Shown: positions 30,254 to 55,970 of the stretch, in pieces
How the letters are laid out: each line of letters begins with the position of its first letter
How positions within the stretch are numbered: position 1 is the first letter of the stretch
Virus record (IMG/VR): IMGVR_UViG_3300036770_008702
Coordinates: 1 to 64,000 of that record
Length of the DNA: 64,000 nucleotides
From: a virus
Strand: one strand, 5' to 3'
Translations under genes and position numbers: made by a program
Notes under the pieces: model-generated
Databases searched by the model: none
What the model saw: the letters and a program-made list of their open reading frames with translations, nothing else
What the model was told of the DNA's origin: nothing

Positions 30254-30286
30254 TGTCGGCGTTCCGCGCGCACTGGAAAGAGTGGG

Positions 30287-30583: not shown

Positions 30584-30946
30584 TCTCTGTGCGCCGGCGG
30601 TCGCCGCCCAACGACGGTGAGCGGCTTCCTGGCGGGTATATTCAGCGAGCCTGCGTCGTAGCCTTTGCCAAGGCATTCTGAACACCGCTATCGTCTCGAT
30701 CGTAGGTTTTGCTCCATCAGCGCCCGCAAACCCTGGGGCCAATCGCTGCTGAATTGTTGTTGCTGTTAAGCGGCGAATCTCTTGTGTTGGGCGCATTGAA
30801 GTGGCGTGCCTGCGAGAACAATATCGTTTGCCAGCTCCGAACGTTTGCCGCTCAGCCGACCCGAAGGTGAAGGCCCGACAGTCAGCTCCGCCGGAATCTT
30901 GTCTGGGGCCCGGGGAGCGGCAGGTCACAAGAAGGGACGGAAGATG

Positions 30947-31153
30947 ATGGCTACGGGTACGGTGAAGTGGTTCAACACGACCAAAGGGTATGGCTTTATC
31001 GGCCTCGACACGGGGGGCAAGGACGTATTCGTGCACGTCAGCGCAGTTCAGAAAGCTGGGCTGCGCACCCTGAACGAGGGTCAGAGGGTCAGCTTTGACG
31101 TCGAGCAACAGCCTAACGGCCGATTAGCGGCCGTGAATCTGGGCGCCGAATGA
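30947..31153 (+). CDS. Cold-shock protein (CspA family)
   Basis: GTVKWFN..KGYGFI, DVFVHVS. Confidence 0.96.
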
Positions 31154-31272
31154 CCAGCATGGTTGACGCAGGCGTGCAGCAAGGCCGGGAGGATGTGTGC
31201 CTTGCGACGGCGCCACAGTACAATAACACAAGGAGACTCGCGCTATACTATTTATCAATATAATTCAGATTG

Positions 31273-33381
31273 CTAGGATTTATCAGATATTTTGTGACCA
31301 ATTCTGCTTTTCAGCGTTACGATAAACGTGGCTCCGTTTTCGTCGTTGGCTGCCCTGATTTCTCCTCCCATTTCCCAGATCAGCCGTCGTGTGATGGCGA
31401 GTCCTAGGCCGGTACCTTCTGTTGCAGACTTGGTTGTCACGAATGGTTCGAACAAGCGTGTTAGGACCGTTTCTGGAATCCCGCCACCGTTATCAGAAAA
31501 ATTGATTTGCACGTCAGCGTTGGATAATCGAGAGACGGATATGCGAATCTGCCGTTTTGGTCCATATGGTTGTTTGGCAAGTGCATCACGTGAATTCATC
31601 AAAATATTAATGAGGGCCTGCTCTAGAGGTAATTTTCGGCCGCGTACAAAAATGGCTTCATTGCAGACCTGAAGATCTACATAGATTTGATCTTGTTGGA
31701 ACGTGTGCTCAAGAATTTCAAGAGAGTCTTGCGATACGAGATTGAGATCAATATCTTCAAGTGACAAATCACTATCCGGTGTTCGCGAGAGTTGCCTTAG
31801 ATTATCAATCAAACGAGCGGCGCGATTCGTCTGATGTTCTATTCTTTGCAGCCGATGCCTCGCGCTCTCGACATCGCCGTCATCGAGAGCAGCAAGAGCA
31901 TTGCTTGCTGCGAGCCCGATTGTACCTAATGGCTGTCGTAGTTCATGCACTAGCCCCGCAGCCATCTCGCCAAGGGATGCGAGTCTCGCGGACGTCAGTG
32001 CACGAGCTTCGGCGTCACGACGAGCTGTCACGTCGATGGTATAGCCTACAATTTCTGCGCCACCGTCAGGCCAGAGCGTCAATACACGAGCGTAGGTATG
32101 CAGTATCCCCCAACTGCCAGAGGGTTGCCGTATGCGCGTTTCGAACGCTACCCGTCCTGAGGAAAGAAGCTCGTGGTTATACTCGTCTGGCTTTGGGTCA
32201 TCCGGATGAACCAGGTCTGTTAGGGAAGAGAGTCTTTCGAGATCACTCGAGGGCCATCCGAACACACCCTCTATATCACCTCCGCGATATACGCTTCGGA
32301 CGGTCGTGCCATCTGGCGCAACTTCTCGCAGGAAGATGACCGCGGGCAATCCATCAAGCAGGCGTTCAACGTCTTTCTGTCCCTCCAACAGCGCTGTCAC
32401 CTCTCGCCGGGCGTGCCGAACATCTTCACGGCGAAGGATCCAGGCTACCGACGCCAGCGTGACGCCAAGCGCAGTGCTGGCCAGTAACAACCACTGGACA
32501 GCCTTCCACGCAGCGCCTTGCAAGGACGCCTGGGCCTCGGCGACGGTCACGGTCCAGCCAGTTGCGACTGACAGACGTTCGACGGCGTAGACATTGTCAT
32601 TTCCGCTCCAGCCGGGCCCGACGACCAGTGTGCTCTGTCTGTTTCCAATGGCCTTTCCCACCCACTCTGGCGCTCTGGCGCCAACTCGGCGTCCTGTCGG
32701 ATCGAAGCTGTGCGCCAGGATCCGGAACTGGCTATCGGCGATCGCGGCGAATGTGCCGGGTGGAAGGTTCTGGCTTAGAAGTAGTTCCCTCATTGCAGTC
32801 GGTTTCAGTGCCAGCGCCAGCGCTCGGCGGGTTTGACCTGGTCGCTCAACGGGAACGAGCGCTGCCAACACGAGCCGGTCCGCAACAGCACCAGGAAACA
32901 GATCTGAAATCGCCGGACGTGAATGTTGGAATACTTCATCAAGAGCAGGCAGCAGAGCCTGCTCGTGACCCTTTGGCAAAGCGGAGGGCAGGGGCGTTCC
33001 CGGCACGCGGAGGGAGTTAGCTCTCATCATGTAGTCGGGCGGGGGACCGATGAGAACGATCCAGCCTCCGAGGCGAGCACCGACGGTGCGTGCACGTTCT
33101 TCAAACGCCCCGGCAGCAGCCCCAGAATCGAGCAAATTAGACGTCGCAAGTGTTTCCAGGGCGCTGACATAACGTCCCAGCTGCGCGTCCACCGCGGAAG
33201 CGAGGGCTCGCGCTGTCGACTGCAAGCGCGCTTCATCATTCGATCGGTAAAGGGTGAGGGTTGTGGAAAGTGAAAGAATTACAAACAAAATGGCTGGAAA
33301 GATGGCAAAAGCGCCAACGATTAACCGAAAAATACCAGGGCGCTTAGTTCGAAATACGGTCACTGCCTCCGCGATCTTCAT
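31273..33381 (-). CDS. Orphan sensor histidine kinase (TM-Cache-like-PAS-HisKA-HATPase)
   Basis: HELRQP H-box, DNGGGIP, FEPFVTTK, GTGLGL; no adjacent regulator. Confidence 0.9.
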   Translation of the reverse strand: MKIAEAVTVFRTKRPGIFRLIVGAFAIFPAILFVILSLSTTLTLYRSNDEARLQSTARALASAVDAQLGRYVSALETLATSNLLDSGAAAGAFEERARTVGARLGGWIVLIGPPPDYMMRANSLRVPGTPLPSALPKGHEQALLPALDEVFQHSRPAISDLFPGAVADRLVLAALVPVERPGQTRRALALALKPTAMRELLLSQNLPPGTFAAIADSQFRILAHSFDPTGRRVGARAPEWVGKAIGNRQSTLVVGPGWSGNDNVYAVERLSVATGWTVTVAEAQASLQGAAWKAVQWLLLASTALGVTLASVAWILRREDVRHARREVTALLEGQKDVERLLDGLPAVIFLREVAPDGTTVRSVYRGGDIEGVFGWPSSDLERLSSLTDLVHPDDPKPDEYNHELLSSGRVAFETRIRQPSGSWGILHTYARVLTLWPDGGAEIVGYTIDVTARRDAEARALTSARLASLGEMAAGLVHELRQPLGTIGLAASNALAALDDGDVESARHRLQRIEHQTNRAARLIDNLRQLSRTPDSDLSLEDIDLNLVSQDSLEILEHTFQQDQIYVDLQVCNEAIFVRGRKLPLEQALINILMNSRDALAKQPYGPKRQIRISVSRLSNADVQINFSDNGGGIPETVLTRLFEPFVTTKSATEGTGLGLAITRRLIWEMGGEIRAANDENGATFIVTLKSRIGHKISDKS

Positions 33382-41793: not shown

Positions 41794-43374
41794 CTAGCCC
41801 CAGAGATCGAGGGTGAGCTGCGAGCGCGGGCCGCCGGGGGTCTGGGCCCCGTCGACGTCGATGCCGACGACGCGAAAATCGCGGCCGGCACCGTAACCGA
41901 GCCGGCTGGTGACCAGACGCACCGCGCTGCCAAGATCGATCGCGGCTCGCGCCTGGGTGAGCCAGACGCCGACCTGAGTGAAGTCGCGCCGCAGCTTGTG
42001 CAGCGCGAGCACCCGGCTGGCCTCGGTTGCCATGTCCGCGGCCTGCTGCAGGCAGGTGTCGCGCAGCATCTCGGGGGCGAGGAGATGGGCGGTCTGCACC
42101 GCGGTGTCGCTGGCGATGGCCTCGCGCCAGGGTTGCAGCAACTCGGCACGACGGGCCTCGGTCAGTGACGGGCCAACGGCGACCAGGTCGTTGGCGCTGG
42201 TCTCGGCATAGGGCCGGCCGCGCAACCGGACCCGCCACACCGGGATCCCGGCATCGGCATCGCGGGTGGCCAGGGTGTCCAAGGCTTCGATCTCGACGTC
42301 GGTGAAGGTGAAGGCCGGGCTGCCGGTCGGCGCCAGCAGCTGGCCGACCTGCCACAGCCCGGTGCGGGTGGGGGCGAGCCAGCCGCCGCAGCCGCTGAGG
42401 ACCTGGTCGATCGCCTGCTGCCGGGTTACCTCGCCGGTGAGGTGGACGCCGCACTCGCCCGTGGCGGCGGCGTTGAGGGTGGTGAAGGACCCGGCATCCA
42501 GATCCCCGACGGCCACGCCGCAGCGCTGCGTCAGCAGGCGCTGGACGATCTCGCCGGCCTTGGCGACATAACCGCCGGCGGCATCGCCCTGCGCATCCAT
42601 GGTGATGCGGCCGACGGCCGACGCGCCGAGGCGGACCAGGCCGAGGGCGAGGCAGGTGTCGAACTGGCCGGCGGCGACCGTCGCGCCTTCGAGGGCTGCC
42701 AGGCTGGCGCGGTTGTTGCCGGAGAAGGTCAGCGCCACGCCCTGGTCGTAGACGGCGTCGACGGCCTGGGCCTGGCCGTCATGGAACTGGTAGATCAGCC
42801 GGGCGGTGTTCACCAGGATGGGGACCAGCTGGTAGCGCCGCCCGAACAGCAGCGGTTTGCGGCGTCCCTTGATGTCGTCGGCACTGCCCTCGGCGCCTGC
42901 AGGGAGGGCATTGTTGCCAGCGTAGAGATTGGCCTGGAGCGGCAGCGCCAGCATCTGCAGCTTGTCACGCAGGCGGATGGTCACGGTGCGGGCGCCGACC
43001 TCGACCTGCTCGGCGGTGCCGGTCAGGAAGGTAGTGGTGCCGCCGGGATAGGGCGCGTTTTGCGGCCCCACACGCACCACCACCTCACGCCCGTCGATAC
43101 CGAGGTCGCGGAGATAGGCAAGGCCCTGGTCCAGGTTGTTGAGCACGATGTCGCCGACACCGACCGTGCTGCCGCCGCCGAGGCGGGCGGCCGAGAACAT
43201 GGTGCGCTTGAAGCGGATCGGCTGCTGCAGGCGCGGGGCGAAGTGGACGTTCGGGGGCACCTCCGTCGGCCGGGTCATGGTGCCGAGGCCGGAGGTGAAG
43301 CGCAGCACTCGGGTGCCGGGGATGGCCGGGTCGTAGGCGGTGACCTCGACCAGAGTGATCAAACCGTCAGGCAT
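41794..43374 (-). CDS. Tail tip/hub-like protein
   Basis: EG..DDIKGRRKPLLFG, VYDQGV; directly after TMP. Confidence 0.8.
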   Translation of the reverse strand: MPDGLITLVEVTAYDPAIPGTRVLRFTSGLGTMTRPTEVPPNVHFAPRLQQPIRFKRTMFSAARLGGGSTVGVGDIVLNNLDQGLAYLRDLGIDGREVVVRVGPQNAPYPGGTTTFLTGTAEQVEVGARTVTIRLRDKLQMLALPLQANLYAGNNALPAGAEGSADDIKGRRKPLLFGRRYQLVPILVNTARLIYQFHDGQAQAVDAVYDQGVALTFSGNNRASLAALEGATVAAGQFDTCLALGLVRLGASAVGRITMDAQGDAAGGYVAKAGEIVQRLLTQRCGVAVGDLDAGSFTTLNAAATGECGVHLTGEVTRQQAIDQVLSGCGGWLAPTRTGLWQVGQLLAPTGSPAFTFTDVEIEALDTLATRDADAGIPVWRVRLRGRPYAETSANDLVAVGPSLTEARRAELLQPWREAIASDTAVQTAHLLAPEMLRDTCLQQAADMATEASRVLALHKLRRDFTQVGVWLTQARAAIDLGSAVRLVTSRLGYGAGRDFRVVGIDVDGAQTPGGPRSQLTLDLWG

Positions 43375-46300
43375 CAGGCGACATCCCGGACGGTGTTGCG
43401 CAGCTTCTGCACGGCCTCGGTGGTGCCACTGGTGCCGGCACGCACCTCGCCAGCGATCAGGACCGCCGCCTCGCGCAGCACCTGGCGCAAGTCGGCAACC
43501 TCCTGGCGCAGCGCCTGGAGATCGGCGCGCAGGCTGTCGGACGCCGCAGGCATGGTGGCGCGGACGCCGAGGGAGCCATCGCCACGGCGGGCCAAGGGCA
43601 TGATCGCCTCGGGCCCGGCCTCGCCGAACAGCGCCATCGGCGCCAGGGTGGGACGACCGACGAGGTCGGGGATGCCGCCGCGCGCGAAAGGGATGACGTT
43701 GCCGCCGGTGAACACGCCGCCGAGGGCAAAGGCGCCGCCTTCGCCGGCGTTGCCGCCACGGGCGTCGTCGATCAGCGTCTGGGTGTTCTGCACGACCTGG
43801 CTGGTGAAGCCGCGTGTCGCGGCAATGTCATCGCGCATGGTGGCGAGGATGGCGTTGGCCGCGGTGAGCAGCCCGGACAGCTTGTCGTCGATGGAGCGGC
43901 TGATCTGGATGGTCTCGGTGGTCTCGACCGCCTGGCGGATGATGCGGGTGATACTCTCGTCGGTCAGCAGCGTCGCCCCGGTGGCGGCGAGCACCTGCTG
44001 GAAGATGCCGCGCAGCACCGCCTCGCTCTCCGGCACGACGATGGTGCCGGTCGGCGCGAAGATGGTCTGGTTGATGCCGCGGGTGACGATGGCGCTCTCG
44101 ATGACCAGGGCCCGCTCGGCGTCCGTCAGAACCCGACCCAGCTGCTGCTCGACGGTGCGGACGACGCTGGCGGCCTGGATCAGTCCGGCGCGCTCCTCGG
44201 CGGTGAGGTCCCGGCCGATGGCTTGGCCGATGGTTCGTTCGATCGCCGCGCCCTGCACCAGGCTATCGCGCTCGGCATCGGACAGGGTGCGCCCGATTGT
44301 CTGCTCGATACTGCGCAGGATGCTGCCGCCCTGCACCAGGCCGGCGCGCTCCGCGTCGGTGAGATCGCGGCCGATGGCTTGCTCGACGATGCGGGCGATG
44401 CTAGCGCCCTGCACCAGGCTATCGCGCTCGGCATCGGAGAGGTTGCGGCCGATCGCCTGTTCAATGCTGCGCAGGATGCCGCCGCCCTGGACCAGGCCAG
44501 CACGCTCGGCGTCGGTGAGGTCTCGCCCCATCGCCTGCTGGATGGCGCGGGTGATATCGGCGTCATAGACGAGCCCGGCGCGTTCGGCGGGCGACAGGTC
44601 ACGCCCGATAGCCTGCTGGATGGCCCGCGTGATGTCGGCAGCCTGCACCAGGCCGGCGCGCTCGGCGACGGAGAGATCGCGGCCCATGGCCTGCTGGATC
44701 GCGCGGGTGATGTCGGCACCATAGACGAGCCCGGCGCGCTCGGCCGGCGACAGGTCACGTGCCATCCCCTGTTGGATGGCACGGGTGACATCGGCGGCCT
44801 GAACGAGCCCGGCACGCTCGGCGACGGACAGGTCGCGCTGCATCGACTGCTCGATGTCGCGGCGCACGACAGCGCCCTGCACCAGGGCGTCGATCTCACC
44901 ATCGGTCAGCAGTCGGCCAAGCCGTTCCTCAACCGTGCGCAGCACCGTAGCGGTCTGCACCAACCGCGCCCGGTCGGCGTCCGGTAGCGCGTTCAACGCC
45001 TCGGTGATGACGCGCACTATCTCGACACCGACCTGGACGTTCACCGAGCCGCCCAGCTGCTGAAGCGCGGCCAGGATCTGCGCGTCGTAGGACTGGGTGG
45101 CCGGCAGGTTCTCCAGGCTGGAGATGATGAACTGGCGCAGCGCCTGGAAGTCGGTGCCTGAGGCATACATGCCACGCCCGGCGGCCAGCAGCGTGTCGGC
45201 GGTCTGAGTGATGCGGGACAGAGCATCGCCGTCGCCGCCACGCGCCAGGGCCAGGTCCCGCCCGAAGGCGTTCTGGGCTTCGGTGAGCCGGTCGGTGGGC
45301 GAGGCGCCGCCGGAAGCTCCGGCGCGCAGTCCATCTATATAAGTACGGATCGCACCACCGGTGCGCAGCAACGCGTCGCGCGCCTGCTCGGCATAGCGGG
45401 CGATGATGGCGGCCCGCTCGGCCGCCTGCGTCTCCTCCAACGCCACCAGCAGCCGCGACTTCTCGGCCGCGGCGGTTGCCAGCGCCTCCAGTTGCTCGGT
45501 GAAGGCCCGTGTCTCCTGCCGCGCCGCCTCGGTCTGGCGGGCTAGTTCGGCCGCCTCGGTGTTGCCAGCTGCGGTGAGCCGCCGCACCACCAGCGCCACC
45601 TCGCCCTGGCGCAGCGTCTCGGTGCGTTGCACCTCCAAGGCCGCGATCTGCCGGGCACGCTCGGTGGCAAGCTTCTCCTCGGCGAGCCCGTACGTACGGG
45701 CCGTCTCGGTTGCCTTGTCGAAGGCGGCGTTGATGGCGTCGATCTGCTGCGCGAAGGCCGCCAGCGGCGCCGTGCCGAGCTTGTCGATCTCGGCCTGGGC
45801 GGCCAGGAAGCCATCGACCCATTGCGCCAGCTTGTCCACGCCGGAGAAGGTCTTGCCCTCCAGCGAGCGGGTGAGGTCAGCGTTGTCCCGCGAGGCAAAG
45901 CGCAGTCGGGTGTACGCCTCTTCGACCGAGCCGGCATCGGCCCAAGAATAGTCGGCGCCGTTCTTGTTCCCGCCGATGACGCTGACGCCACCCACCTGCA
46001 GGCCCCGCTGGGCCAGATAGGCGTTGGTGGCGGCGACAACCTGCTCGGCCTGGGCGAAGACCGCCTTGCCGCTGTCGTTGTAGAAACGGTAGTCAATCGG
46101 CATCAGCTGGTCGGCCATCGCGTTTGACGGCGCCGCGTCAGGCCCCCAGCCGGCGCTCTGCAACCGCAGGCCGAAGCCGCGCACGCTCTCGCCGGGGCCG
46201 AACAGGCCGCCCAGCCCCCCACCGGCTGCCCCGCCGAGCAGGCCGCCGATGAGGGTGCCGATGCCGGGGATGATCGAGCCCAGTGCCGCCCCGGCCAGGG

Positions 46301-48710
46301 CCCCGGCGCCGGAGCCGACCATGCCGCCGGTCTGGTTGCCGCCGAGGAGCGAGTTGAGCAGCATGCCCGCGCCGAAGCCGGCTCCGGCACCGCCCAGCAG
46401 CGAGCCGAACGTCGCGCCGGTGCCGCCGAAAAGCCCGCCACCACCGAAGGCTTGCAACTGGGCGAGCGAGGCCGGGCCGTAGGCCCCGCCCATCGCGCCC
46501 AGCGCGGCACTGGTTGAGGTGCCCCAGCCGGTGATGGCCGTGGCACCCAGCAATCCACCCGCGCCGGTCAGGCCGAGGCCGGAGCCGATGCTGGAAAGCA
46601 GCCCGCCGGGTCCGGTCAGACCCAGCGTCTCGCCGATATTGCCGAGCCCGAGTAGGCTCGCGAGCGAGCCACCGCCCGAGGCCGCACCACCGACGCCACC
46701 GATCCCACCGCCACCGAAGATGCCCTGGACGATGGGGGTGACGATCGGGCGGATCACCGCCTCGGCGGCGATGCGCGCGAAGGTCGCGCGCGCCAGGCGG
46801 TAGAAATCGTCCATCAACCCGGCCCAACCACGGCCCGTGGTGCTGAACAGGTCGGCGAAGCGGTCGCCGGCATAGCGCACCACGTCGTCGGTGGTAGACT
46901 GGATCTGGCGCTCCTGTTCCTTGCGGGCGTCGTCGAGCTTCTTCTGGTCGTCCTGGGCCGACTTGTAGGCCGCCCGCTGCGCCTCGATCTGGCGCACCGT
47001 GGCCTCGATCGCCTCGGCCTCACGCTGCTGAGCGGCGGTGCGCTTCTCGATGGCGGGGATGCCGGCTTCGCGCAGCTGCTTCTCTATCTCCAGCGCGACG
47101 TTCAATGCTGCCACCGCATTGCTGCCCTGGCGTTGCGCCTCGGTCAGGCGGGTCTGGCGGTCGAGCTCGACGGCCAGCGCCTCGGAGACCTTGGCCACCT
47201 TGGCGGCCTGGTCGTCGGCCAGCTTGGCGGCCTTCTGGCCCTCCTCATTGGCCTTGGCCAGCTTGTCCTGATACTCGCGCAGCGCATCCGCCCGCGCCCT
47301 GGTGGCATCGAAGACCGCCCCGCCCGGAAGGGTGGTGACCCCGGCCGCCTCGGCGCGGGTGATCTTTGCCAGCTGCTCCTGATACTCGCGGGTGGCCTTG
47401 AGCTTCTTGTCGTTGGCCTCGACGACCTCGCGCACTTCCTGAGCGGTACGGGTGCGGGCGGCCTCGGCAGCCTTGGCCTGGGCGGTGACGTATTCGCCGA
47501 AGCGCTGCTGCCCGGCATCGCGCTCGATCTCGGCCAGACGGTCATTGGCGGTGCGGTAGTCGCTCTCGGCCTGGCGCAGGGCCGACTGCCGGGCGGTGGC
47601 TGCCGCCTGCAATTGGGCGCGCTGGATGGCGGAGTAGCCCCGCGCCGGGTCCGAGCCGTCATCCATCGCCGGACCGGCGCGCAGGGCTTCCAGACGAGCG
47701 CGGCTGCGGGCGACGTCGTTCTCTGCGGCCTGACGGTCGGTTGGCGCGACATACCGCTGCACCGCATTAACCGCGGCGGCCGCGTCCATCGCCGCCTTGG
47801 CGATCGCCTGGGAGAGGCCGAGCGCCTTGTCGAGTTGGCTGGCGAAGTTGTCCATCGCCGCACCCAGCACGCCGAAGGCGCGGCCCATGGTCGGCGGCAG
47901 CTTGTCGAACTCGGCGGCCAGCTTCTCACCGGCGGCAATCAGGGCGGGGAGGACCCGATCGGCGGTGAGCTTGCCCTCGCTGCCCATCTGGCGCAGCTGG
48001 CCGATGCCGACACCCAGCTCCTTGGCCAGCGCCTGTGCCAGCTGCGGCATGTTCTCCAGCAGCGAGCGCAACTCGTCGCCCTGCAGCACGCCGGAGGCCA
48101 GGGCCTGGCCCAGCTGCTGCACCGCCGCGCCAATCTCCTGCGTGGCGCCACCCGAGACAATGCCGGCCTTCTGGACGCCGACCACCAGCCGCATCACCTG
48201 GTCGTTGGTGGCTCCCACCTCCTTGGCGGCGACGGCGAAGCGATTGAACGCCCCGGCAGATTCCGCCACGGCGATGCCGGTCTGCTGCGACAGGCGGAAC
48301 AACCCCTCGAAGGCATGTTCGGCCGCAGCGGCGGAGCCGGTGGCACTGACCAGGCGGGCCAGCACCGCGGTGGCGGTATCGCCGGCCTGGGCAATTCGCG
48401 TCCCTGCGGCCACGGCAGCCGCGCCTATCGCCGCGAAGCCTGCGGCCAGCCCGCCGGCCGCGACAGACACGCCGCCGAAGGTGCGGCCAACGGTGCCGAG
48501 GCTGCCACCCATGCCCTGGAAGGCGCGGGTGGCGACATCGGAGGCGCCGGCCAGGCGCTGCAACCCAGGCGATGCCGCGGTGCTCGCCACCTCCACCCGA
48601 CGCAGGGCCGCCTCGCCCGCCACGCCGAACTGCTCCAACTCGCGACGGGCACGGTCCGCCCCCTCGGTGGAGACGCGGATACCGACGGTGCGGGCGGTGG
48701 CACCACTCAT
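43374..48710 (-). CDS. Tape measure protein
   Basis: QLGQALASGVLQGDELRSLLEN; FARGG...GEAGPEAIMPL; ~1780 aa. Confidence 0.92.
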   Translation of the reverse strand: MSGATARTVGIRVSTEGADRARRELEQFGVAGEAALRRVEVASTAASPGLQRLAGASDVATRAFQGMGGSLGTVGRTFGGVSVAAGGLAAGFAAIGAAAVAAGTRIAQAGDTATAVLARLVSATGSAAAAEHAFEGLFRLSQQTGIAVAESAGAFNRFAVAAKEVGATNDQVMRLVVGVQKAGIVSGGATQEIGAAVQQLGQALASGVLQGDELRSLLENMPQLAQALAKELGVGIGQLRQMGSEGKLTADRVLPALIAAGEKLAAEFDKLPPTMGRAFGVLGAAMDNFASQLDKALGLSQAIAKAAMDAAAAVNAVQRYVAPTDRQAAENDVARSRARLEALRAGPAMDDGSDPARGYSAIQRAQLQAAATARQSALRQAESDYRTANDRLAEIERDAGQQRFGEYVTAQAKAAEAARTRTAQEVREVVEANDKKLKATREYQEQLAKITRAEAAGVTTLPGGAVFDATRARADALREYQDKLAKANEEGQKAAKLADDQAAKVAKVSEALAVELDRQTRLTEAQRQGSNAVAALNVALEIEKQLREAGIPAIEKRTAAQQREAEAIEATVRQIEAQRAAYKSAQDDQKKLDDARKEQERQIQSTTDDVVRYAGDRFADLFSTTGRGWAGLMDDFYRLARATFARIAAEAVIRPIVTPIVQGIFGGGGIGGVGGAASGGGSLASLLGLGNIGETLGLTGPGGLLSSIGSGLGLTGAGGLLGATAITGWGTSTSAALGAMGGAYGPASLAQLQAFGGGGLFGGTGATFGSLLGGAGAGFGAGMLLNSLLGGNQTGGMVGSGAGALAGAALGSIIPGIGTLIGGLLGGAAGGGLGGLFGPGESVRGFGLRLQSAGWGPDAAPSNAMADQLMPIDYRFYNDSGKAVFAQAEQVVAATNAYLAQRGLQVGGVSVIGGNKNGADYSWADAGSVEEAYTRLRFASRDNADLTRSLEGKTFSGVDKLAQWVDGFLAAQAEIDKLGTAPLAAFAQQIDAINAAFDKATETARTYGLAEEKLATERARQIAALEVQRTETLRQGEVALVVRRLTAAGNTEAAELARQTEAARQETRAFTEQLEALATAAAEKSRLLVALEETQAAERAAIIARYAEQARDALLRTGGAIRTYIDGLRAGASGGASPTDRLTEAQNAFGRDLALARGGDGDALSRITQTADTLLAAGRGMYASGTDFQALRQFIISSLENLPATQSYDAQILAALQQLGGSVNVQVGVEIVRVITEALNALPDADRARLVQTATVLRTVEERLGRLLTDGEIDALVQGAVVRRDIEQSMQRDLSVAERAGLVQAADVTRAIQQGMARDLSPAERAGLVYGADITRAIQQAMGRDLSVAERAGLVQAADITRAIQQAIGRDLSPAERAGLVYDADITRAIQQAMGRDLTDAERAGLVQGGGILRSIEQAIGRNLSDAERDSLVQGASIARIVEQAIGRDLTDAERAGLVQGGSILRSIEQTIGRTLSDAERDSLVQGAAIERTIGQAIGRDLTAEERAGLIQAASVVRTVEQQLGRVLTDAERALVIESAIVTRGINQTIFAPTGTIVVPESEAVLRGIFQQVLAATGATLLTDESITRIIRQAVETTETIQISRSIDDKLSGLLTAANAILATMRDDIAATRGFTSQVVQNTQTLIDDARGGNAGEGGAFALGGVFTGGNVIPFARGGIPDLVGRPTLAPMALFGEAGPEAIMPLARRGDGSLGVRATMPAASDSLRADLQALRQEVADLRQVLREAAVLIAGEVRAGTSGTTEAVQKLRNTVRDVA
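44061..44996 (-). repeat. 12 tandem 78-bp (26-aa) repeats within the TMP
   Basis: Consensus GRDLxxAERAGLVQxAxIxRxIxQAx. Confidence 0.9.
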
Positions 48711-49450
48711 GATTTGACCCCCCGCAGTTCGGCGATGGCGTTGCGCGCAAACCAACCCGGCACTCGCGAGCGCACGCTGGCCACATCGAGCCGCTTGCGC
48801 AGGGTGACGCGGCGCAGCAGCAGGAACATCGGCACGAACCCCTGGGCCAGGACGTCCCGCCGGCGCTGCGCCTGGCTCTTGCGATGGCCGGTCAGCACCT
48901 CGGTGCCGCTGCCGACGAACAGTCGCAGCCGGTTGCGCGTGCGGCGGCTGGTCCCGGTGGCTGCGGCCACCCGCAGGCACCAGAGTGCGGTGCCGGGCCG
49001 CGATCGGCTGGGCAGCACGAAGGCCTCGCCACGCCGCCCGGCCTGGATCATCTGCGCCGGGGTGATGCGCAATCCGCCACGCCGGCCCGACCTACGGCCG
49101 CCAATCGAATTGTAGCCGGTGGGGATGGCCATGTAGGTGCGGCCGCGCGCGACGATGGTGGCGCCGCGGTCAAAGGCGGTGACGACGGTCGGCATGCGCG
49201 ACCAGATCAGGGCTGCTGGCTTGAAGGTGGTCGGTGCCGTCCCTGCGGCCGGATACAGGTTTAGGCGCCAGGCATTGGCGATGCTGCGGCCGCCGTCCTT
49301 GAAGCCAGCCGACCGGGCCTGGGCGCGCAACTCTGACTGCACCTCGCGGCCGGTTGCGGCGACGGCGCGGCGCAGTCCGCCTGCGACGGCGCGCACCTCG
49401 GTCTGCATGGCCTCACGCAGGCGGCCGAACACGGCGGCGCGGACGAACAT
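48707..49450 (-). CDS. DUF6441-like phage protein
   Basis: ELRAQ..SAG...ANAWR, AFDRGATI, VPMFLL..VTLRKRLD. Confidence 0.8.
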   Translation of the reverse strand: MFVRAAVFGRLREAMQTEVRAVAGGLRRAVAATGREVQSELRAQARSAGFKDGGRSIANAWRLNLYPAAGTAPTTFKPAALIWSRMPTVVTAFDRGATIVARGRTYMAIPTGYNSIGGRRSGRRGGLRITPAQMIQAGRRGEAFVLPSRSRPGTALWCLRVAAATGTSRRTRNRLRLFVGSGTEVLTGHRKSQAQRRRDVLAQGFVPMFLLLRRVTLRKRLDVASVRSRVPGWFARNAIAELRGVKS

Positions 49451-49580
49451 GGGCTGGTTCCTGCGGGTGTGCCGACGCTTGCGCTGGCCCATGCCACGGT
49501 TGCGTGGCTACGCTGCGTCCAGGCGGCTCGGATCGTCGAAATTCCGGTCACCGCGTGGCAGCGATCTGGGGAGTGGGTAG

Positions 49581-50474
49581 ATGAGCAAGGTGCGTGTTGG
49601 CTTGGTCCAGATGGCGCTGAAGGCACCGACCTCGGCGCCGGTCGCAGAGATTCGCGACGCGATGAATGCCGCCCATGCCGAGCAGGTGCGCCAGGCGGCG
49701 GAGCAGGGCGTGCAGGTGATCTGCTTCCAGGAGGTGTTCAACGCCCCGTACTTCTGCCCGGTGGCGGAACCGCGCTGGCTGGAAGCCGCGGAGCGCGTGC
49801 CGGAAGGACCAACGACGCAGCTGATGTGCCAGGTCGCCCGCAAGCACAGCATGGTGATCGTGGTGCCGCTCTACCGGCGCCACGACGATGGCCGGAAGAC
49901 CAACACCGCGGTGGTGATCGACGCTGATGGCTCGGTCCTGGGTACCTACGAGAAGACGCACATCCCGACCATTGGGGCGCACCTGCATACGATGATCGGC
50001 AACGAGGAGCGCGGCACCGAGCGCTACTGGTTCGAGCCAGGGACCACGGGGTTCCCGGTGTTCCAGACACGCTACCTGAAGCTGGGGGTCTACATCTGCT
50101 ACGACCGGCACTTCCCCGAAGGCTGGCGTGCCCTCGGTCTGGCCGGCGCCGAGTATGTCGTGAACCCCTCGGCGACCTGGAAGGGGTTGAGTCAGCACCT
50201 CTGGACGCTGGAGCAACCGGCGGCCGCGGTGGCGAACGGTTTCTATGTCGGTGCCATCAACCGCGTCGGTGTCGAGGAACCCTGGGCGATCGGCGAGTTC
50301 TACGGCTCCAGCTATGTGGCTGATCCGCGTGGCCGCATCCTGGCCCAAGGGCCCGACGATCGCGATGCGCTGGTGGTGGCCGATATCGACCTCGATGTCG
50401 TCCGCGAGGTGAAGGCGACGTGGAAGTTCGACGAGCATCGCCGTCCCGAGACCTACGGCGCCCTCACGCGCTGA
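49581..50474 (+). CDS. Nitrilase-superfamily C-N hydrolase, beta-ureidopropionase-like
   Basis: E-K-C triad: FQEVF, YEKTHIP, ICYDRHFPEGWRALGL; ends RRPETY. Confidence 0.92.
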   Translation: MSKVRVGLVQMALKAPTSAPVAEIRDAMNAAHAEQVRQAAEQGVQVICFQEVFNAPYFCPVAEPRWLEAAERVPEGPTTQLMCQVARKHSMVIVVPLYRRHDDGRKTNTAVVIDADGSVLGTYEKTHIPTIGAHLHTMIGNEERGTERYWFEPGTTGFPVFQTRYLKLGVYICYDRHFPEGWRALGLAGAEYVVNPSATWKGLSQHLWTLEQPAAAVANGFYVGAINRVGVEEPWAIGEFYGSSYVADPRGRILAQGPDDRDALVVADIDLDVVREVKATWKFDEHRRPETYGALTR

Positions 50475-50793
50475 CCGACTGGCCGCGGAGCCGCGCCTCG
50501 CTCTCGACCATCTTGGCGTAGATCGTGCCGAGGGTGGCAAAGGCATCAACCAGCCAGGCTGCCTGGTCTCCGACGCCGCCGGCATCGGGCCAGTGCGCGA
50601 CACCACCTTTTGGATCCCGGCATGCGGCCCAAAGGCGGACGACCTCATGCCAGGCTGGCGCAATTGCCAGCCGCGGGTTGTCGCCCTTCCACGGCTCGCC
50701 TGCGACCAGCCAGTCCGAGCCATCCTCCGGCCTCAGCCCTCCGGCGAAGGCGTCGGGGTCCCTGGCGACGGCAAGGGCGCCACGGAGTTTCCC
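50464..50793 (-). CDS. Tail assembly chaperone -1 frameshift extension (gpT-like)
   Basis: Entered through G GGA AAC; WPDAGGVGDQAAWLVDAF. Confidence 0.75.
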   Translation of the reverse strand, partial: GKLRGALAVARDPDAFAGGLRPEDGSDWLVAGEPWKGDNPRLAIAPAWHEVVRLWAACRDPKGGVAHWPDAGGVGDQAAWLVDAFATLGTIYAKMVESEARLRGQSVSA

Positions 50794-51377
50794 TCCGCAC
50801 TCCGGTCCAGCGACACCAGCAGGAAGGCCCGCCAGCCCACGGCAGTGACCTCGCTCGCCGGCAGCACGTCGAGCAGGTCCTCCGGCACCAGTCCCTTGTC
50901 CCGCCGGAAGACCGGCAGCCCGGGACCATCCCAGCCGCGGAGTGCATGCCGGCACGCCACCCAGGGTGCCATGCCAGTCCAGCGCTCGCCGGCCACGCGC
51001 AGTTCCGCATAGACGGGCACGTCCATGCAGGCGGTGATGATCACCGCGAGCCGCGCCTGCGCCTCTGCCAGCTTGGCCTTGAGCGTCGTGTCGTCCGGTG
51101 CAGCATCCACCGCGTCGCGTGCGGCATCGGCGTCGTCGACAACGGCGAGGGCCTCGTCCAGGTTGGCGGGCGCGATCTCGCGCAACGCGGCGCGCAGGCC
51201 GTTGCTGACATCCTGCGGCGACGGGCGCATGCCGGCCTCGCGCGCGAGTGCCGTTCGGAAGGCAATGCGTTCGCGATAGGTCAGTGGCGCCAGACGGTAG
51301 GTCCGCGGGCTGCCCGGCGGGGTGAAAGCCACGAGGTCGTGCGCCGAGAACACCGGCGGGGCGGTCATGCCATCCAT
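50733..51377 (-). CDS. Tail assembly chaperone (gpG-like)
   Basis: Follows tail tube; slippery site near its end. Confidence 0.8.
   Translation of the reverse strand: MDGMTAPPVFSAHDLVAFTPPGSPRTYRLAPLTYRERIAFRTALAREAGMRPSPQDVSNGLRAALREIAPANLDEALAVVDDADAARDAVDAAPDDTTLKAKLAEAQARLAVIITACMDVPVYAELRVAGERWTGMAPWVACRHALRGWDGPGLPVFRRDKGLVPEDLLDVLPASEVTAVGWRAFLLVSLDRSAEGNSVAPLPSPGTPTPSPEG
50787..50793 (-). other. Programmed -1 frameshift heptamer GGGAAAC
   Basis: In-frame GAG GGA AAC; the -1 frame GKLRG... stays open to 50464. Confidence 0.8.
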
Positions 51378-51400: not shown

Positions 51401-52567
51401 TCAGAACTGGGCGAGATAGAAGGCGCTGTCGGCGCCATCGCCCTGGAAGCTGATGCCATGCTGGCCGAGGCCATCGCGCTGGCCAGGGTCCATGGCGATC
51501 GCCTTGGCGTTCGGCACGATCGCCACGAAGCGGTTGCCCGGGGTGCTGCCGATGATCGCCATCAGCGACATCGGCGTGCCCGCCCGGAAGGCGTTGAACA
51601 GCGCCACCGAGTTCGTGGTGTTCATGTAGGGATCAAGGTTCCCCGCCACGTCGCGCTCGATCGGCAGGGCGGCGCCATAGCCCTCCGCACTCTCCGGGTC
51701 GTCGGGCAGGATGACGTTGACCCCGGCATTGATGGTCAGCGTCCGGACCTGGGCCAGCGCCTTGTTGAGCTGGCACTTGCCGCCGACAAAGCGCGGGGGC
51801 GTCGGCCGCAGCACCGCGGCGGCACCTGCCGGCACGGCGGTCGCAGACTTGCTGGCGAACTGGGCGCGCATCTCGAAGCTGACGAAGCCGATGCCGCCGG
51901 TGGTGAGCTCCAGGGTGGGCGTTCCCAGCGCGCCGGTGAAGGTCCAGAGCAGACCATCGGCGTAGAAGTAGATCGTCGCGGTCTTGTAGACGCTCTCGTC
52001 TGAGGTCGGGCTGTAGAGCACGTTGATCGGGATCTGCAGCAGGCTGCCCGTGGTGTAGGCCGTGCCGGCGGTATCGCCCGTGGTGATCACCCGCGCCGCG
52101 GTGTAGTCGACGATCCCGGTTGTGCCTGCAGCGATGCCGGTGACGATCAGCGGCATGCCGCGATACTGCTGCGCGGTGGTGCCGAACGGAGTGGCTGCGG
52201 TCACCGTGGTGGTGGTGCCGGCGGTGGCGGCGGTCGGGGCGCCGATGGCGGCGGCAGTGACCAGTTCGGCGAAGGTGCTGCAGCGCATCAGCTTGCCGAA
52301 GTCCGGCGCGGTGCCGGCAGTGCCGGAACCGCGCAGGGGCATGCGCAGCCGCAGTCGTGGCTTGAGGCCACCGACGACCGAGGATGCCTTGTCGAGCGAG
52401 CCGGTGAGTTCGGGCAGTTCGATGATGGTGGGGTCGAACTGCACCTCCATCTCCGACGCGATCCAATCACCTGCCGCCGGCGTGCCGCCGATGGAGTCTA
52501 CCCCGGGGGTGACTTCGATCTTGGCCGCGACGGCGGCGAACTTCATGCGTACGAGATTCACACTCAT
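51401..52567 (-). CDS. Major tail tube protein
   Basis: AKIE.T.G.D, LRGSGTAGTAP, IIGSTPGN; position. Confidence 0.8.
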   Translation of the reverse strand: MSVNLVRMKFAAVAAKIEVTPGVDSIGGTPAAGDWIASEMEVQFDPTIIELPELTGSLDKASSVVGGLKPRLRLRMPLRGSGTAGTAPDFGKLMRCSTFAELVTAAAIGAPTAATAGTTTTVTAATPFGTTAQQYRGMPLIVTGIAAGTTGIVDYTAARVITTGDTAGTAYTTGSLLQIPINVLYSPTSDESVYKTATIYFYADGLLWTFTGALGTPTLELTTGGIGFVSFEMRAQFASKSATAVPAGAAAVLRPTPPRFVGGKCQLNKALAQVRTLTINAGVNVILPDDPESAEGYGAALPIERDVAGNLDPYMNTTNSVALFNAFRAGTPMSLMAIIGSTPGNRFVAIVPNAKAIAMDPGQRDGLGQHGISFQGDGADSAFYLAQF

Positions 52568-53059: not shown

Positions 53060-53377
53060 TCAGCCCTCCGCCAGGACGAGGCGCCAGGAGAGGTCGAGCG
53101 GATCGCGCTCGGCGTCCTCGACGCGGTGCACCGCGGTGCCAATCCGCACCTCGTCGCCACGTTGCGGTTCCAGTGAGGCGATGTCGCCCGCGAGGATGGT
53201 GGCGGACAGACTGCCGGCGCGGGTGCCGATGCCGCCCAGCCCACCGATGGTGTCGGTGGGTCGCGACAGCACGACACGGGCCGGCACCCAGGGGCCGGGC
53301 GGATGGCGGAAGTCGGCCGGGGTGCCGATGTTGCTGTCGGCGTGCGCCGCCGCCAACATGGAGGCGAAGGCCGACAT
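53060..53377 (-). CDS. Head-tail joining protein
   Basis: PQRGD.V.IG...V...ERD...W. Confidence 0.75.
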   Translation of the reverse strand: MSAFASMLAAAHADSNIGTPADFRHPPGPWVPARVVLSRPTDTIGGLGGIGTRAGSLSATILAGDIASLEPQRGDEVRIGTAVHRVEDAERDPLDLSWRLVLAEG

Positions 53378-53757
53378 CAGCCCCTCCCCGCCGGATAGGC
53401 ATCGCGGTTGAGCTCGAAGTGCGGGCCATCGCGGAAGCGCGGCCAGTCGCCACCCCACACGATGGCGACACCGCGGGCCTGCGCGGCATCCTTTACGGCC
53501 TTGGCCATTGGGAAAAAAAGCGGCCAGTCCCAGCGGACCTTGCCCGCCACCGTCGGGGCGAGATCGACGGCGTGGCCAGTGAGGTGCCGGCTGTCCATGG
53601 TGCGGCTGGCGCCGGCCTTTACCAGCTGCGCCTGACGCTCGCGTGTGCGCATGCCCTCCACCACGATGAAGGGCAGAATCTGGCGCGCCGCCTCGACGAC
53701 GGCAACCAGGTCGGGATGCACGCCCGTGAGCCGGGCCTTGTCGCGGACCGTCATCAT
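53377..53757 (-). CDS. M15 peptidase endolysin
   Basis: GVHPDL, EG.RT.ERQ, SRHLTGHAVD, WGGDW..F.DGPHFEL. Confidence 0.92.
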   Translation of the reverse strand: MMTVRDKARLTGVHPDLVAVVEAARQILPFIVVEGMRTRERQAQLVKAGASRTMDSRHLTGHAVDLAPTVAGKVRWDWPLFFPMAKAVKDAAQARGVAIVWGGDWPRFRDGPHFELNRDAYPAGRG

Positions 53758-54300: not shown

Positions 54301-54406
54301 GATGGAGACGCTCCAGAAACGCGAAGGGCGACCCGAAGGAGGCCGTGTGAGAATTAGCGCCGGAACTCAGGTAGAATCGCCGCATCGGTAACGGTGCGGC
54401 GATTCC

Positions 54407-55819
54407 ATGAGATACGTGCGCGGCGAAGACCGGAACCAGGCGAACCTGCTTCCGGCTGTTCTGGATGATTACGTTGGACCCGAAGCGGCGGTGCGTGTCG
54501 TGGACGTCTTCGTAGATGGCCTCGACATGGCGGGACTTGGTTTTGGTCGAGCTGCTCCAGCCGCATTGGGACGTCCCGGTTACGATCCTCGCGACCTGCT
54601 GAAGCTCTACATCTACGGCTACCTGAACGAAGTCCGCTCGTCGCGTCGCCTGGAACGAGAGTGCGGGCGCAATCTCGAGGTGATGTGGCTGGTTCGGCGC
54701 CTTGCTCCGGACTTCAAGACGATTGCGGATTTCAGACGTGACAATACGGAAGCGATCGTCGGCACAGCCCGCGCCTTTGTGCTGTTCTGCCGTGATCAAG
54801 GCCTTTTCGCAGCGCGGCTGGTTGCCCTGGATGGTTCAAAGTTTCGGGCAGCTGCGAGCGCCAAGCGGATCATGGGACGGCGCGAAATTTCGGAAGAGGT
54901 GGCGCGCGTCGACCGGGCTATTGCAGGCTATCTTGGTCGCCTTGACGCAGCGGACGCAGATGAGCCGGCCGATAGCGATACATCGACTACTTCTGGTTCG
55001 GTGGAGGCGGCTATTGCAACGCTCCAAGAGCGGCGTGCCGAACTTGATCGGCTAGCCGCGTATCTGGAAGCCGAAGGACGCACCACCATTGTCGAGGGCG
55101 AGCCGGATGCGCGACCGATGCGATCGGGCGCTGGACGCAAGCCACCGAGCTACAATGTCCAAACGGCTGTCGATGCTGAGACCGGCCTCATTGTTCACCA
55201 CGAGGTCACGACCGAACCGACTGACAACCGGCTGCTCTATACCATGGCAAGTGCCACCAAGGCTTCGCTCGATCGCGAAACGCTCACGGTGGTCGCGGAT
55301 AAGGGCTACTCAAATGGGGCCGATGCCAGCGCCTGCGAAGCGGGTGGCATTACGCCATGCGTGCCTGCCAACCGATCGAGCAACAACCAAGGTGATGGCA
55401 CGTTGTTCACGCGGTCGGTCTTCACGTACGAGCCGGAGGGCGATCGATATCGCTGCCCAGCAGGTCGCCTCCTCGTTCGCAGGCAAGTTATCCGTCGAGA
55501 CGCCACCATCCTCTATGCCGCTCGCGACTGCAGCGGCTGTGACCTGAAGCCCCGCTGCACCCAAACCAACCGGCGCCTCATCACCCGCCACCTGCATGAG
55601 GACGCGCTGGTGCGCATGCAGGCTCGTATCGACGCGGATTCGACTCTGATGGTCAAACGACGCTGTGCCGCCGAGCATCCGTTTGGAACGATCAAACGAA
55701 TGAGCCAGGGACGGTTCCTGACCAGAGGCCTAAAGGGGACCAGAGGAGAGTTTGCCCTTTCGGTTCTCGCCTACAACATCCTCCGCAGCACCAATATCGC
55801 CAGGTCCGCAACATCCTAA
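54407..55819 (+). CDS. IS1182 transposase
   Basis: YGYLN.VRSSRRLE, PDFKTIADFR, LDGSKF, ADKGY, EHPFGTIK. Confidence 0.95.
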   Translation: MRYVRGEDRNQANLLPAVLDDYVGPEAAVRVVDVFVDGLDMAGLGFGRAAPAALGRPGYDPRDLLKLYIYGYLNEVRSSRRLERECGRNLEVMWLVRRLAPDFKTIADFRRDNTEAIVGTARAFVLFCRDQGLFAARLVALDGSKFRAAASAKRIMGRREISEEVARVDRAIAGYLGRLDAADADEPADSDTSTTSGSVEAAIATLQERRAELDRLAAYLEAEGRTTIVEGEPDARPMRSGAGRKPPSYNVQTAVDAETGLIVHHEVTTEPTDNRLLYTMASATKASLDRETLTVVADKGYSNGADASACEAGGITPCVPANRSSNNQGDGTLFTRSVFTYEPEGDRYRCPAGRLLVRRQVIRRDATILYAARDCSGCDLKPRCTQTNRRLITRHLHEDALVRMQARIDADSTLMVKRRCAAEHPFGTIKRMSQGRFLTRGLKGTRGEFALSVLAYNILRSTNIARSATS

Positions 55820-55860
55820 TGCGCCGCCGTCGGTTCGGCGTCTCAGCATAAGTAAGAAAG

Positions 55861-55890
55861 GAGGCCTCCAGTTGGAGGCCTCTTCGTTTT
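55861..55890 (+). terminator. Hairpin inside the IS right end
   Basis: GAGGCCTCCA-gt-TGGAGGCCTC followed by TTCGTTTT. Confidence 0.6.
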
Positions 55891-55970
55891 CACACGGCCT
55901 CCCGAAGGCCGCCCGTTCGCGAGACGATGAGGATGGAGAGGAAGGCCGGGCGGGCTCGATCAGCCCGGCA

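What the first reader, a model, noticed from the sequence alone, without database searches (positions are those of the whole stretch)
49581..50474. Intact beta-ureidopropionase-like nitrilase inserted antisense in the tail operon, with an altered active-site loop
It sits between the chaperone and DUF6441/TMP genes and overlaps the frameshift ORF end by 11 bp. The triad is intact, but the loop after KTHIP reads TIGAHLHTMIGNEERGTERYWF, about 10 aa longer than the usual short GFWEKFYF-type segment. No pyrimidine-catabolism partners are nearby. Inference: a phage moron with a shifted substrate, for nitrogen scavenging or breakdown of a modified base or defence signal.
Basis: partly seen in the sequence, partly recalled or inferred. 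Interest (0 to 1): 0.7.

Follow-up and report, generated by a model that had tools for sequence, protein, structure and literature searches.

The report
Nitrilase-family cargo gene in prophage tail operon
A prophage of freshwater Alphaproteobacteria carries, at the classic "moron" site between its tail chaperone and tape-measure genes, an intact, strongly conserved amidase from a rare offshoot of bacterial beta-ureidopropionase; this is a good example of phage cargo, not a new kind of system.

Summary
ORF 49581-50474 (+) is an intact 297-aa carbon-nitrogen hydrolase (Pfam 1.5e-61). Its nearest solved structures are beta-ureidopropionases. It lies antisense between a tail chaperone G/GT pair, which has a conserved -1 slippery heptamer, and DUF6441/tape-measure genes. 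It overlaps the GT stop by 11 bp.

The 11-residue loop insertion is real, but the phage did not invent it. It defines a rare monophyletic bacterial subclade that is sister to loop-less beta-ureidopropionases found in pyrimidine-catabolism clusters.

The gene is a ~1.05-kb cassette (about 49445-50493):
- Metagenome contigs show the empty site.
- Four related proviruses keep the gene at the same place, with dN/dS 0.03-0.04.
- Other relatives carry nothing or unrelated, mostly antisense, low-GC cargo there (exonuclease, T5orf172, DUF4238, fatty-acid hydroxylase).

The same cassette, with the same loop, also occurs outside a phage in an Acetobacterales MAG, beside a truncated helicase gene.

Best reading: a selected lysogenic-conversion moron encoding a ureido-acid amidohydrolase whose substrate has shifted and is unknown. 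Expression, promoter and substrate are untested. The moron is a new member of a known kind. Interest is moderate.

The parts
49581..50474 (+). Nitrilase-superfamily amidase gene (297 aa, P0002). Triad E51/K125/C173 plus E147. Loop insertion at about residues 133-143, with subclade-invariant H136 and R144.
49445..50493 (.). Inserted cassette of about 1.05 kb. Related phages lacking it join 49444 to 50494/50498 with 19-30 other letters between.
   Evidence: joints in runs X2 and X15; homology to cargo-less relatives stops at about 49441-49446 and 50531-50537
49451..49580 (+). Upstream spacer of the nitrilase, divergent from DUF6441. GGAG ribosome-binding site at 49570-49573, 7 nt before the ATG. 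The promoter is presumed to lie here but was not identified. About 105 nt of the spacer is shared with the non-phage copy L006.
50733..51377 (-). Tail assembly chaperone G candidate, assigned by position and frameshift signal. It has no HMM hit.
50464..50793 (-). -1 frame extension (T part of GT), beginning at slippery heptamer G GGA AAC (50793-50787). Its stop at 50466-50464 overlaps the nitrilase 3' end by 11 bp. Its last ~10 codons lie inside the cassette.
48707..49492 (-). DUF6441 / phrog_6367 protein. Its real start is probably the ATG at 49450 (M15), where homology to cargo-less phages begins.
43374..48980 (-). Tape measure protein (TMP_3). The ORF as listed overlaps DUF6441, and the codon-position GC shift puts the real start near 48700.
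51401..52567 (-). Probable major tail protein (388 aa), conserved upstream of the chaperone in all related loci. It has no HMM hit.

Best explanation
The gene is the cargo of a phage moron. A ~1.05-kb cassette sits antisense at the junction between the tail chaperone G/GT genes and the DUF6441/tape-measure genes of an HK97-like siphovirus prophage. HK97 gene 15, the first moron described, occupies the same position.

The cassette encodes a catalytically intact nitrilase-superfamily amidase. It belongs to a rare bacterial subclade derived from beta-ureidopropionase. That subclade has an 11-residue insertion carrying invariant His and Arg between the catalytic Lys and the second Glu, and several further changes towards basic residues.

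The enzyme most likely hydrolyses an N-carbamoyl (ureido) acid other than N-carbamoyl-beta-alanine to an amino acid, CO2 and NH3. This would give the lysogen a nitrogen or carbon source.

Shown: the insertion and its boundaries, conservation under strong purifying selection, subclade membership, and the absence of pathway partners.

Inferred: transcription from its own promoter in the 130-nt upstream spacer during lysogeny, the ureido-acid chemistry, and the benefit to the host.
For: - Family and fold: Pfam CN_hydrolase 1.5e-61. Best PDB matches are beta-ureidopropionases at 1e-56 by sequence and TM 0.88 by fold.
- Sister clade: the loop-less homologues (55-63% identity) sit beside dihydropyrimidinase (102 of 159 loci), NCS1 permease (91), PreA (78), PreT (59), aminotransferase and aldehyde dehydrogenase.
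- Subclade: the loop-bearing clade is monophyletic, support 0.996. H136, R144 and E147 are invariant, and 19 alignment columns separate the clades: 4 inside the insertion, the other 15 substitutions including A164R, Y206H, D286H and E263A.
- Cassette boundaries and empty sites.
- Same site in relatives: empty in L174, L175, L186 and L221; other cargo in L176-L184.
- Retention: kept in L002-L005 at 95-99% amino-acid identity while dS reaches 0.75. dN/dS is 0.03-0.04, against 0.06-0.15 for tail genes.
- The record is a genuine phage: terminase, portal, head-protease, tail proteins.
- HK97 precedent: PMC3594210.
- A good GGAG ribosome-binding site precedes the ATG.
- Runs from 18 studies, mostly lake and drinking water, hold part of the stretch.
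Against: - No sigma-70-like promoter or intrinsic terminator was found around the gene. Transcription would run antisense into the chaperone genes.
- The cassette GC (0.69) equals that of the phage, unlike the classic moron and unlike the low-GC cargo of relatives.
- Expression evidence is weak. It consists only of contigs from RNA libraries. One is 99% identical over 215 nt; others also cover tail genes. These could be DNA carry-over or lytic transcripts.
- The substrate is unknown.
- The only non-phage context recovered (L006) is a rearranged junction beside a truncated helicase gene, so it gives little functional guidance.
- Contexts of the other loop-bearing homologues could not be fetched.
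Confidence: 0.75

Rival explanations
1. It is an ordinary beta-ureidopropionase (EC 3.5.1.6) that supplements or completes the host's reductive pyrimidine catabolism. The longer loop would be a neutral or regulatory variation.
For: Nearest characterised and structural relatives are beta-ureidopropionases. The Cys-flanking motif YICYDRHFPEGWRAL is invariant in both clades. Sources annotate relatives as beta-ureidopropionase.
Against: - The loop and about 15 further clade-specific substitutions are fixed across a clade that diverges to 62% identity.
- None of the partner genes is in the record or in related phages.
- The one MAG with the cassette has no PreA orthologue (best E 2.4e-5) and only 30%-identical cyclic amidohydrolases, though the MAG is incomplete.
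- In 401 Acetobacterales genomes only one other has even the loop-less enzyme.
Confidence: 0.12
2. It is an anti-phage defence or counter-defence gene. It would deplete or destroy a small ureido or amide metabolite that a superinfecting phage or a host immune pathway needs.
For: In relatives the same site holds cargo with matches to candidate defence families: DEDDh exonuclease/PDC-S48, T5orf172/PDC-S57, DUF4238 and HTH proteins. That cargo is mostly antisense, like the nitrilase. Prophage morons often give phage resistance (PMC3594210; PMC10884400).
Against: P0002 has no PADLOC hit. It is a single gene with no sensor or partner. The family is metabolic, and its closest relatives sit in catabolic clusters. 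FA_hydroxylase in L176 shows that the site also takes non-defence cargo.
Confidence: 0.08
3. It is a functionless passenger or an annotation artefact of a high-GC genome.
For: High-GC DNA gives many long spurious ORFs. One example is the 391-aa antisense ORF 49548-50723.
Against: There is a full-length Pfam match and + strand codon-position GC. dN/dS is 0.03-0.06 with dS up to 0.86. The active-site residues are intact.
Confidence: 0.02

Closest known systems
HK97 gene 15 moron (Juhala et al. 2000; Cumby et al. 2012; reviewed in PMC3594210)
   Same: [quoted passage not shown] It is absent from close relatives, has bacterial homologues outside prophages, and is presumed to be expressed from the prophage.
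   Different: The cargo here is a 297-aa cytoplasmic enzyme, not a small membrane superinfection-exclusion protein. It is antisense to the operon. Its GC equals the phage's. No promoter or terminator was recognised. A DUF6441 gene lies between the cargo and the TMP.
Bacterial nitrilase-type beta-ureidopropionase in reductive pyrimidine catabolism clusters (loop-less 285-288-aa clade); animal beta-ureidopropionases 2vhh, 6ftq, 8pt4
   Same: 55-63% identity to the bacterial clade and 36-39% to the animal enzymes. Same fold, the same E-K-E-C residues and the same CYDRHFPE motif.
   Different: An 11-residue insertion after K-T-H-I-P with invariant H136/R144, about 15 further clade-specific substitutions, and no dihydropyrimidinase, PreA/PreT or NCS1 neighbours.
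N-carbamoyl-D-amino-acid amidohydrolase (1erz, 1fo6, 6lcg)
   Same: Same superfamily and ureido-acid chemistry. From memory, it also has a long loop between the catalytic Lys and the second Glu that carries a substrate-contacting His. This was not tested here.
   Different: Only 25-27% identity and E about 1e-28, far behind beta-ureidopropionase. The two loops were not shown to be homologous.
phrog_14201 (phage CN-hydrolase-like family, function unknown)
   Same: Shows that carbon-nitrogen hydrolases do occur in phage genomes.
   Different: The match is weak (4e-16, 60 bits), so this is a different subfamily. No sequenced phage in INPHARED has a relative above 33% identity.

Membership tests
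Nitrilase superfamily (Pfam CN_hydrolase PF00795) | Profile match above the gathering score over the whole domain | tested here: met
   208 bits against a cut-off of 23.2, residues 5-278 on profile positions 1-255 of 256
Nitrilase superfamily (Pfam CN_hydrolase PF00795) | Glu-Lys-Cys catalytic triad (plus second Glu) | tested here: met
   E51, K125, C173 and E147 are invariant in A1/A2 and aligned to the catalytic residues of 2vhh/6ftq
Nitrilase superfamily (Pfam CN_hydrolase PF00795) | Alpha-beta-beta-alpha sandwich fold | tested here: met
   AF2 pTM 0.87. Foldseek TM 0.88 to 2vhh, with probability 1.00 to many superfamily members
Beta-ureidopropionase (EC 3.5.1.6, nitrilase type) | Closest sequence and structure relatives are beta-ureidopropionases | tested here: met
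   the sister clade sits in pyrimidine-catabolism clusters
Beta-ureidopropionase (EC 3.5.1.6, nitrilase type) | Short loop (GFWEKFF / GDFNESTYY) between the catalytic Lys and the second Glu | tested here: not met
   11-residue insertion
Beta-ureidopropionase (EC 3.5.1.6, nitrilase type) | Genomic association with dihydropyrimidinase and dihydropyrimidine dehydrogenase | tested here: not met
   None in the record or in L002-L005. No PreA orthologue in G001.
Beta-ureidopropionase (EC 3.5.1.6, nitrilase type) | Hydrolysis of N-carbamoyl-beta-alanine | not testable with these tools
   Needs an enzyme assay
N-carbamoylputrescine amidase AguB (TIGR03381) | Score above the equivalog cut-off | tested here: not met
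   202.5 bits against a cut-off of 410.25
Phage moron (Hendrix/Juhala sense) | Extra DNA between two genes that are adjacent in related phages | tested here: met
   Gap of 12-111 nt in L174, L175, L186 and L221 against about 1.05 kb here. Empty-site joints.
Phage moron (Hendrix/Juhala sense) | Own promoter and terminator | tested here: inconclusive
   No consensus hits, and no stable hairpin downstream, z -0.49. The antisense orientation nevertheless requires a promoter of its own.
Phage moron (Hendrix/Juhala sense) | Base composition differs from the flanking phage genes | tested here: not met
   GC is about 0.69 in both cassette and flanks. Cargo of relatives is 0.44-0.53 against 0.62-0.64 for the locus.
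Phage moron (Hendrix/Juhala sense) | Expressed from the repressed prophage | tested here: inconclusive
   Only contigs of RNA libraries, which show neither strand nor physiological state
Tail assembly chaperone G/GT with -1 programmed frameshift (the flanking genes) | Slippery heptamer near the end of G, an overlapping -1 ORF, and a position between the major tail and tape-measure genes | tested here: met
   G GGA AAC at 50793-50787. GGGAAAC or AAAAAAC in 16 of 16 related loci. Gene order. No HMM hit.
Known anti-phage defence systems (PADLOC-DB 2.0) | Match to a defence-protein model | tested here: not met
   0 families for P0002 at E <= 0.01

The most novel reading that the evidence does not exclude
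The nitrilase is an immunity-type cargo, not a nutritional one. It occupies a prophage hot spot that in relatives holds defence-like genes. Its insertion and substitutions add basic residues (R144, H136, A164R, Y206H, D286H). It could therefore hydrolyse an acidic ureido metabolite such as N-carbamoyl-aspartate, the committed pyrimidine precursor. That would throttle nucleotide supply to superinfecting phages, or destroy a ureido or amide signalling molecule. Either would be a new enzymatic class of prophage-encoded metabolic defence.
Probability: 0.07. Interest if true: 0.8.

Novelty: new member of a known kind. Interest (0 to 1): 0.4.

Why it matters
The finding gives a clean natural experiment. 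One insertion site in one phage lineage is seen empty, filled with a metabolic amidase, or filled with defence-like genes. The amidase is held under stronger purifying selection than the tail genes around it. That makes the chaperone/DUF6441 junction a useful place to mine cargo in freshwater alphaproteobacterial prophages.

It also flags an uncharacterised, rare offshoot of beta-ureidopropionase whose conserved His/Arg-bearing loop predicts a new substrate. If the substrate is found, it would show what nitrogen compound these lysogens gain access to. None of this changes how morons or nitrilases are understood.

Tried and rejected
As a result, the contexts of loop-bearing homologues P0004-P0019 could not be read, although some lie on contigs of 50-920 kb.
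Apart from L006 they returned only the loop-less clade.
- Sampling 401 Acetobacterales and 401 Alphaproteobacteria genomes found no further loop-bearing copy. PLSDB plasmids and INPHARED phages have none either.
- Consensus promoter and terminator scans and a fold of the 3' flank gave nothing.
- No direct or inverted repeats mark the cassette ends, so there is no transposon signature.
- I first read L006 as a native chromosomal orthologue next to a Glu/Asp-type ABC transporter. I downgraded this. About 105 nt upstream of its ATG is homologous to the phage cassette, and it abuts a 5'-truncated SNF2 helicase fragment. L006 also nests inside the phage clade. The direction of transfer therefore cannot be told.
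- The first tree run failed at display and was repeated with FastTree.
- Parts of the stretch without read cover, and small-share RNA runs, are not used as evidence.
- A sigma-54 promoter was looked for by eye in the spacer and not found.

Full report
**What is there**

The window is the first 64 kb of an 83,951-bp IMG/VR record classed as a provirus. ORF 49581-50474 on the + strand encodes 297 residues (P0002). Codon-position GC (position 3 at 0.85-0.89, position 2 at 0.42-0.48) fits a + strand gene and not the 391-aa antisense ORF that overlaps it.

The protein matches Pfam CN_hydrolase end to end at 1.5e-61. It falls well below the equivalog cut-off for N-carbamoylputrescine amidase (202 against 410 bits). 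By sequence, the best solved structures are Drosophila and human beta-ureidopropionase (1e-56 to 3e-53), followed by plant N-carbamoylputrescine amidase and D-carbamoylases. An AlphaFold model (pTM 0.87) gives the same order by fold, with TM 0.88 to 2vhh. Glu51, Lys125, Cys173 and the second Glu147 are in place.

**Surroundings**

The minus strand carries a standard siphovirus late operon:
- small and large terminase, portal, and a head-protease fusion;
- a 388-aa probable major tail protein;
- a 214-aa ORF, 50733-51377;
- DUF6441/phrog_6367 (48707-49492);
- a 1,868-aa TMP_3 tape measure, followed by tail proteins.

The 214-aa ORF has no HMM hit. It ends in the slippery heptamer G GGA AAC (50793-50787), and the -1 frame stays open to 50464. 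GGGAAAC or AAAAAAC sits at the same place in all 16 related loci examined. The G/GT chaperone reading is therefore sound.

The nitrilase stop (50472-50474) overlaps the GT stop (50466-50464) by 11 bp, convergently. A GGAG lies 7 nt before the nitrilase ATG.

**It is an inserted cassette at a cargo hot spot**

Four IMG/VR contigs that are 85-88% identical in DNA carry the gene at the same place, with 95-99% amino-acid identity.

I fetched 52 viral loci with a DUF6441 homologue and mapped the flanking genes. Of these, 16 also carry recognisable chaperone G/GT homologues. Three of those 16 are the nitrilase-bearing L003/L005/L004. The distance from the end of the chaperone T frame to DUF6441 falls into three classes:

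| Loci | Gap | Content |
|---|---|---|
| L174, L175, L186, L221 | 12-111 nt | none |
| This lineage | about 1 kb | nitrilase |
| L176-L184 | 0.7-2.8 kb | other genes |

The other cargo comprises a fatty-acid hydroxylase plus an HTH protein, DUF4238, a DEDDh exonuclease (PADLOC PDC-S48), a T5orf172 protein (PDC-S57), an HTH protein, and proteins of unknown function. These genes are mostly antisense to the operon and low in GC (0.44-0.53 against 0.62-0.64).

Public metagenome contigs laid on the region include empty-site forms that join 49444 to 50494/50498, with 19-30 unrelated letters between. This bounds the cassette at about 49445-50493. That agrees with where DNA homology to cargo-less relatives stops. 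No flanking repeats were found.

This is the position of HK97 gene 15, the element for which the word moron was coined (PMC3594210).

**It is kept by selection**

Against the four phage copies, dN/dS is 0.03-0.04 while dS reaches 0.75. The major tail protein, chaperone and DUF6441 give 0.06-0.15 over the same genomes. The stretch, or parts of it, is held by runs from 18 studies, mostly lake, drinking-water and other freshwater metagenomes.

**The loop**

Relative to 287-aa bacterial homologues (HIPQVAGFWEKFF), the protein has an 11-residue insertion (HIPTIGAHLHTMIGNEERGTERYWF). The insertion is not peculiar to the phage. About 17 clusters at 62-95% identity share it, with H136, R144 and E147 invariant. 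They come from MAGs labelled Alphaproteobacteria, Rhodospirillales and Ectothiorhodospiraceae.

In a FastTree phylogeny rooted on two distant paralogues, the loop-bearing sequences form one clade (support 0.996). P0024, with an intermediate-length loop, is their sister. Together they are sister to the loop-less clade.

The loop-less clade is a bona fide pyrimidine-catabolism enzyme. In 159 loci its neighbours are dihydropyrimidinase (102 loci), an NCS1 permease (91), PreA (78), PreT (59), a class-III aminotransferase and an aldehyde dehydrogenase.

Nineteen alignment columns separate the two clades at 90% or more in each. Four of them (H136, M138, R144, G145) lie inside the insertion. Several of the other 15, which are substitutions, move towards basic residues: A164R, Y206H, D286H and E263A. 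The Cys-flanking motif YICYDRHFPEGWRAL does not change. In the model the insertion has only moderate confidence (pLDDT about 60).

My inference is a ureido-acid amidohydrolase that keeps the catalytic core and has a remodelled substrate entrance. An acidic ureido acid is one possibility suggested by the added positive charge, but this is a guess.

**Rarity and origin**

The loop-bearing clade is rare:
- none among 400 other Acetobacterales species;
- none among 400 sampled Alphaproteobacteria, 23 of which have the loop-less enzyme;
- none in PLSDB plasmids;
- none in INPHARED phages, where the best match is 33% identity;
- in IMG/VR, only this phage lineage.

The one genomic hit is L006, a 4,993-bp contig of an Acetobacterales MAG. 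It is 93% identical in protein and has the same loop. Its flanks are not phage: a Glu/Asp-like ABC transporter operon. The MAG shows no tail-gene match.

The second half, a one-off insertion, fails.

L006 is not a clean native locus either. About 105 nt upstream of the ATG is homologous to the phage cassette. It abuts a 5'-truncated SNF2/ZorD-like helicase fragment. The contig ends inside the gene, and in the tree it falls within the phage clade. The cassette has therefore moved as a unit, in a direction that cannot be determined.

**Partners and expression**

No pyrimidine-pathway or transporter gene lies in the record or in the related viral loci. The MAG has no PreA orthologue, though it is incomplete.

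No sigma-70-like promoter, terminator or stable 3' hairpin was detected. Because the gene is antisense to the late operon, it must have its own promoter, presumably in the 130-nt spacer.

RNA-library contigs cover the gene. One of 218 nt has two mismatches, in a sediment metatranscriptome. Others, at about 90% identity, also cover tail genes. These contigs show neither strand nor physiological state.

**Verdict**

The moron reading is supported and extended: a defined cassette, a variable hot spot, and strong purifying selection. The altered loop is a subclade trait inherited from bacteria, not a phage adaptation.

The most likely function is lysogenic conversion by a ureido-acid amidase with an unknown, non-canonical substrate. 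An ordinary beta-ureidopropionase role and a defence role are less likely rivals. No literature on phage-borne beta-ureidopropionase-like enzymes was found. PHROGs holds only a distant CN-hydrolase family of unknown function.

Earlier scan notes on loop-less beta-ureidopropionases in pyrimidine clusters agree with what I found. The same stretch was also noted in another window of this genome.

Noticed in passing
window 54340-55900: An insertion sequence with a DDE transposase (54407-55819; DUF772 + DDE_Tnp_1) sits in a GC-rich stem-loop just downstream of the head-protease gene. It has an 8-bp target duplication (CCCGAAGG) and inverted ends (AGGCCGTGTGA). It is absent from all four close relatives and may have a polar effect on the late operon.
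   Followed up: partly
window 1-19000, against record 61800-83650: The record holds part of a second, related prophage: large terminase 730-2697 (-) and large serine recombinase 15548-16897 (+). It is 80-90% identical in DNA to the early/packaging half of the prophage that carries the nitrilase. The two are tandem or neighbouring polylysogens. The tail region of the second prophage lies outside the record.
   Followed up: partly
window 19063-33381: Between the two prophages lies a defence-type island: a 1,291-aa SIR2_2-domain protein in low-GC DNA (0.52-0.58), a complete type I restriction-modification system (HsdM 23007-24809, HsdS 24829-26061, HsdR 27083-30253), and a PAS/Cache histidine kinase (31273-33381).
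   Followed up: no
L176-L184 (IMG/VR relatives), between chaperone GT and DUF6441: The same junction carries unrelated, mostly antisense, low-GC cargo: FA_hydroxylase + HTH (L176), DUF4238 (L178), DEDDh exonuclease/PDC-S48 (L181), T5orf172/PDC-S57 (L182), HTH (L180, L184), and unknown proteins of 316, 294, 228 and 122 aa (L177, L179, L183). These unknowns are candidate new defence or exclusion genes.
   Followed up: partly
L180 about 3769-4459 and L184 about 2620-3310: A further gap of about 0.7 kb lies between the major tail gene and chaperone G in two relatives. It may be a second cargo site in the same operon.
   Followed up: no
L006:3134-4018 (-): In the Acetobacterales MAG the nitrilase cassette abuts a 5'-truncated SNF2-type helicase fragment. 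The best NCBIfam matches are to the C-terminal ends of SCO1167-family and ZorD helicases. This suggests the cassette landed in, or recombined into, a defence-type gene.
   Followed up: partly
protein P0024 (metagenomic homologue): It has an intermediate loop (HIPNLGRYHGKFPITEQNHF, about 6-7 extra residues) and branches as sister to the loop-bearing clade. It may be a snapshot of how the insertion grew.
   Followed up: no
window 44109-44862: The tape-measure gene contains internal direct repeats, seen as self-matches of 72-78% at offsets of 78, 156, 234 and 312 nt.
   Followed up: no
window 53377-53757 (-): A 126-aa ORF in the head-tail connector region matches an endolysin PHROG (phrog_465, 2e-52). 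It overlaps another long ORF, and its true extent and role were not resolved.
   Followed up: no
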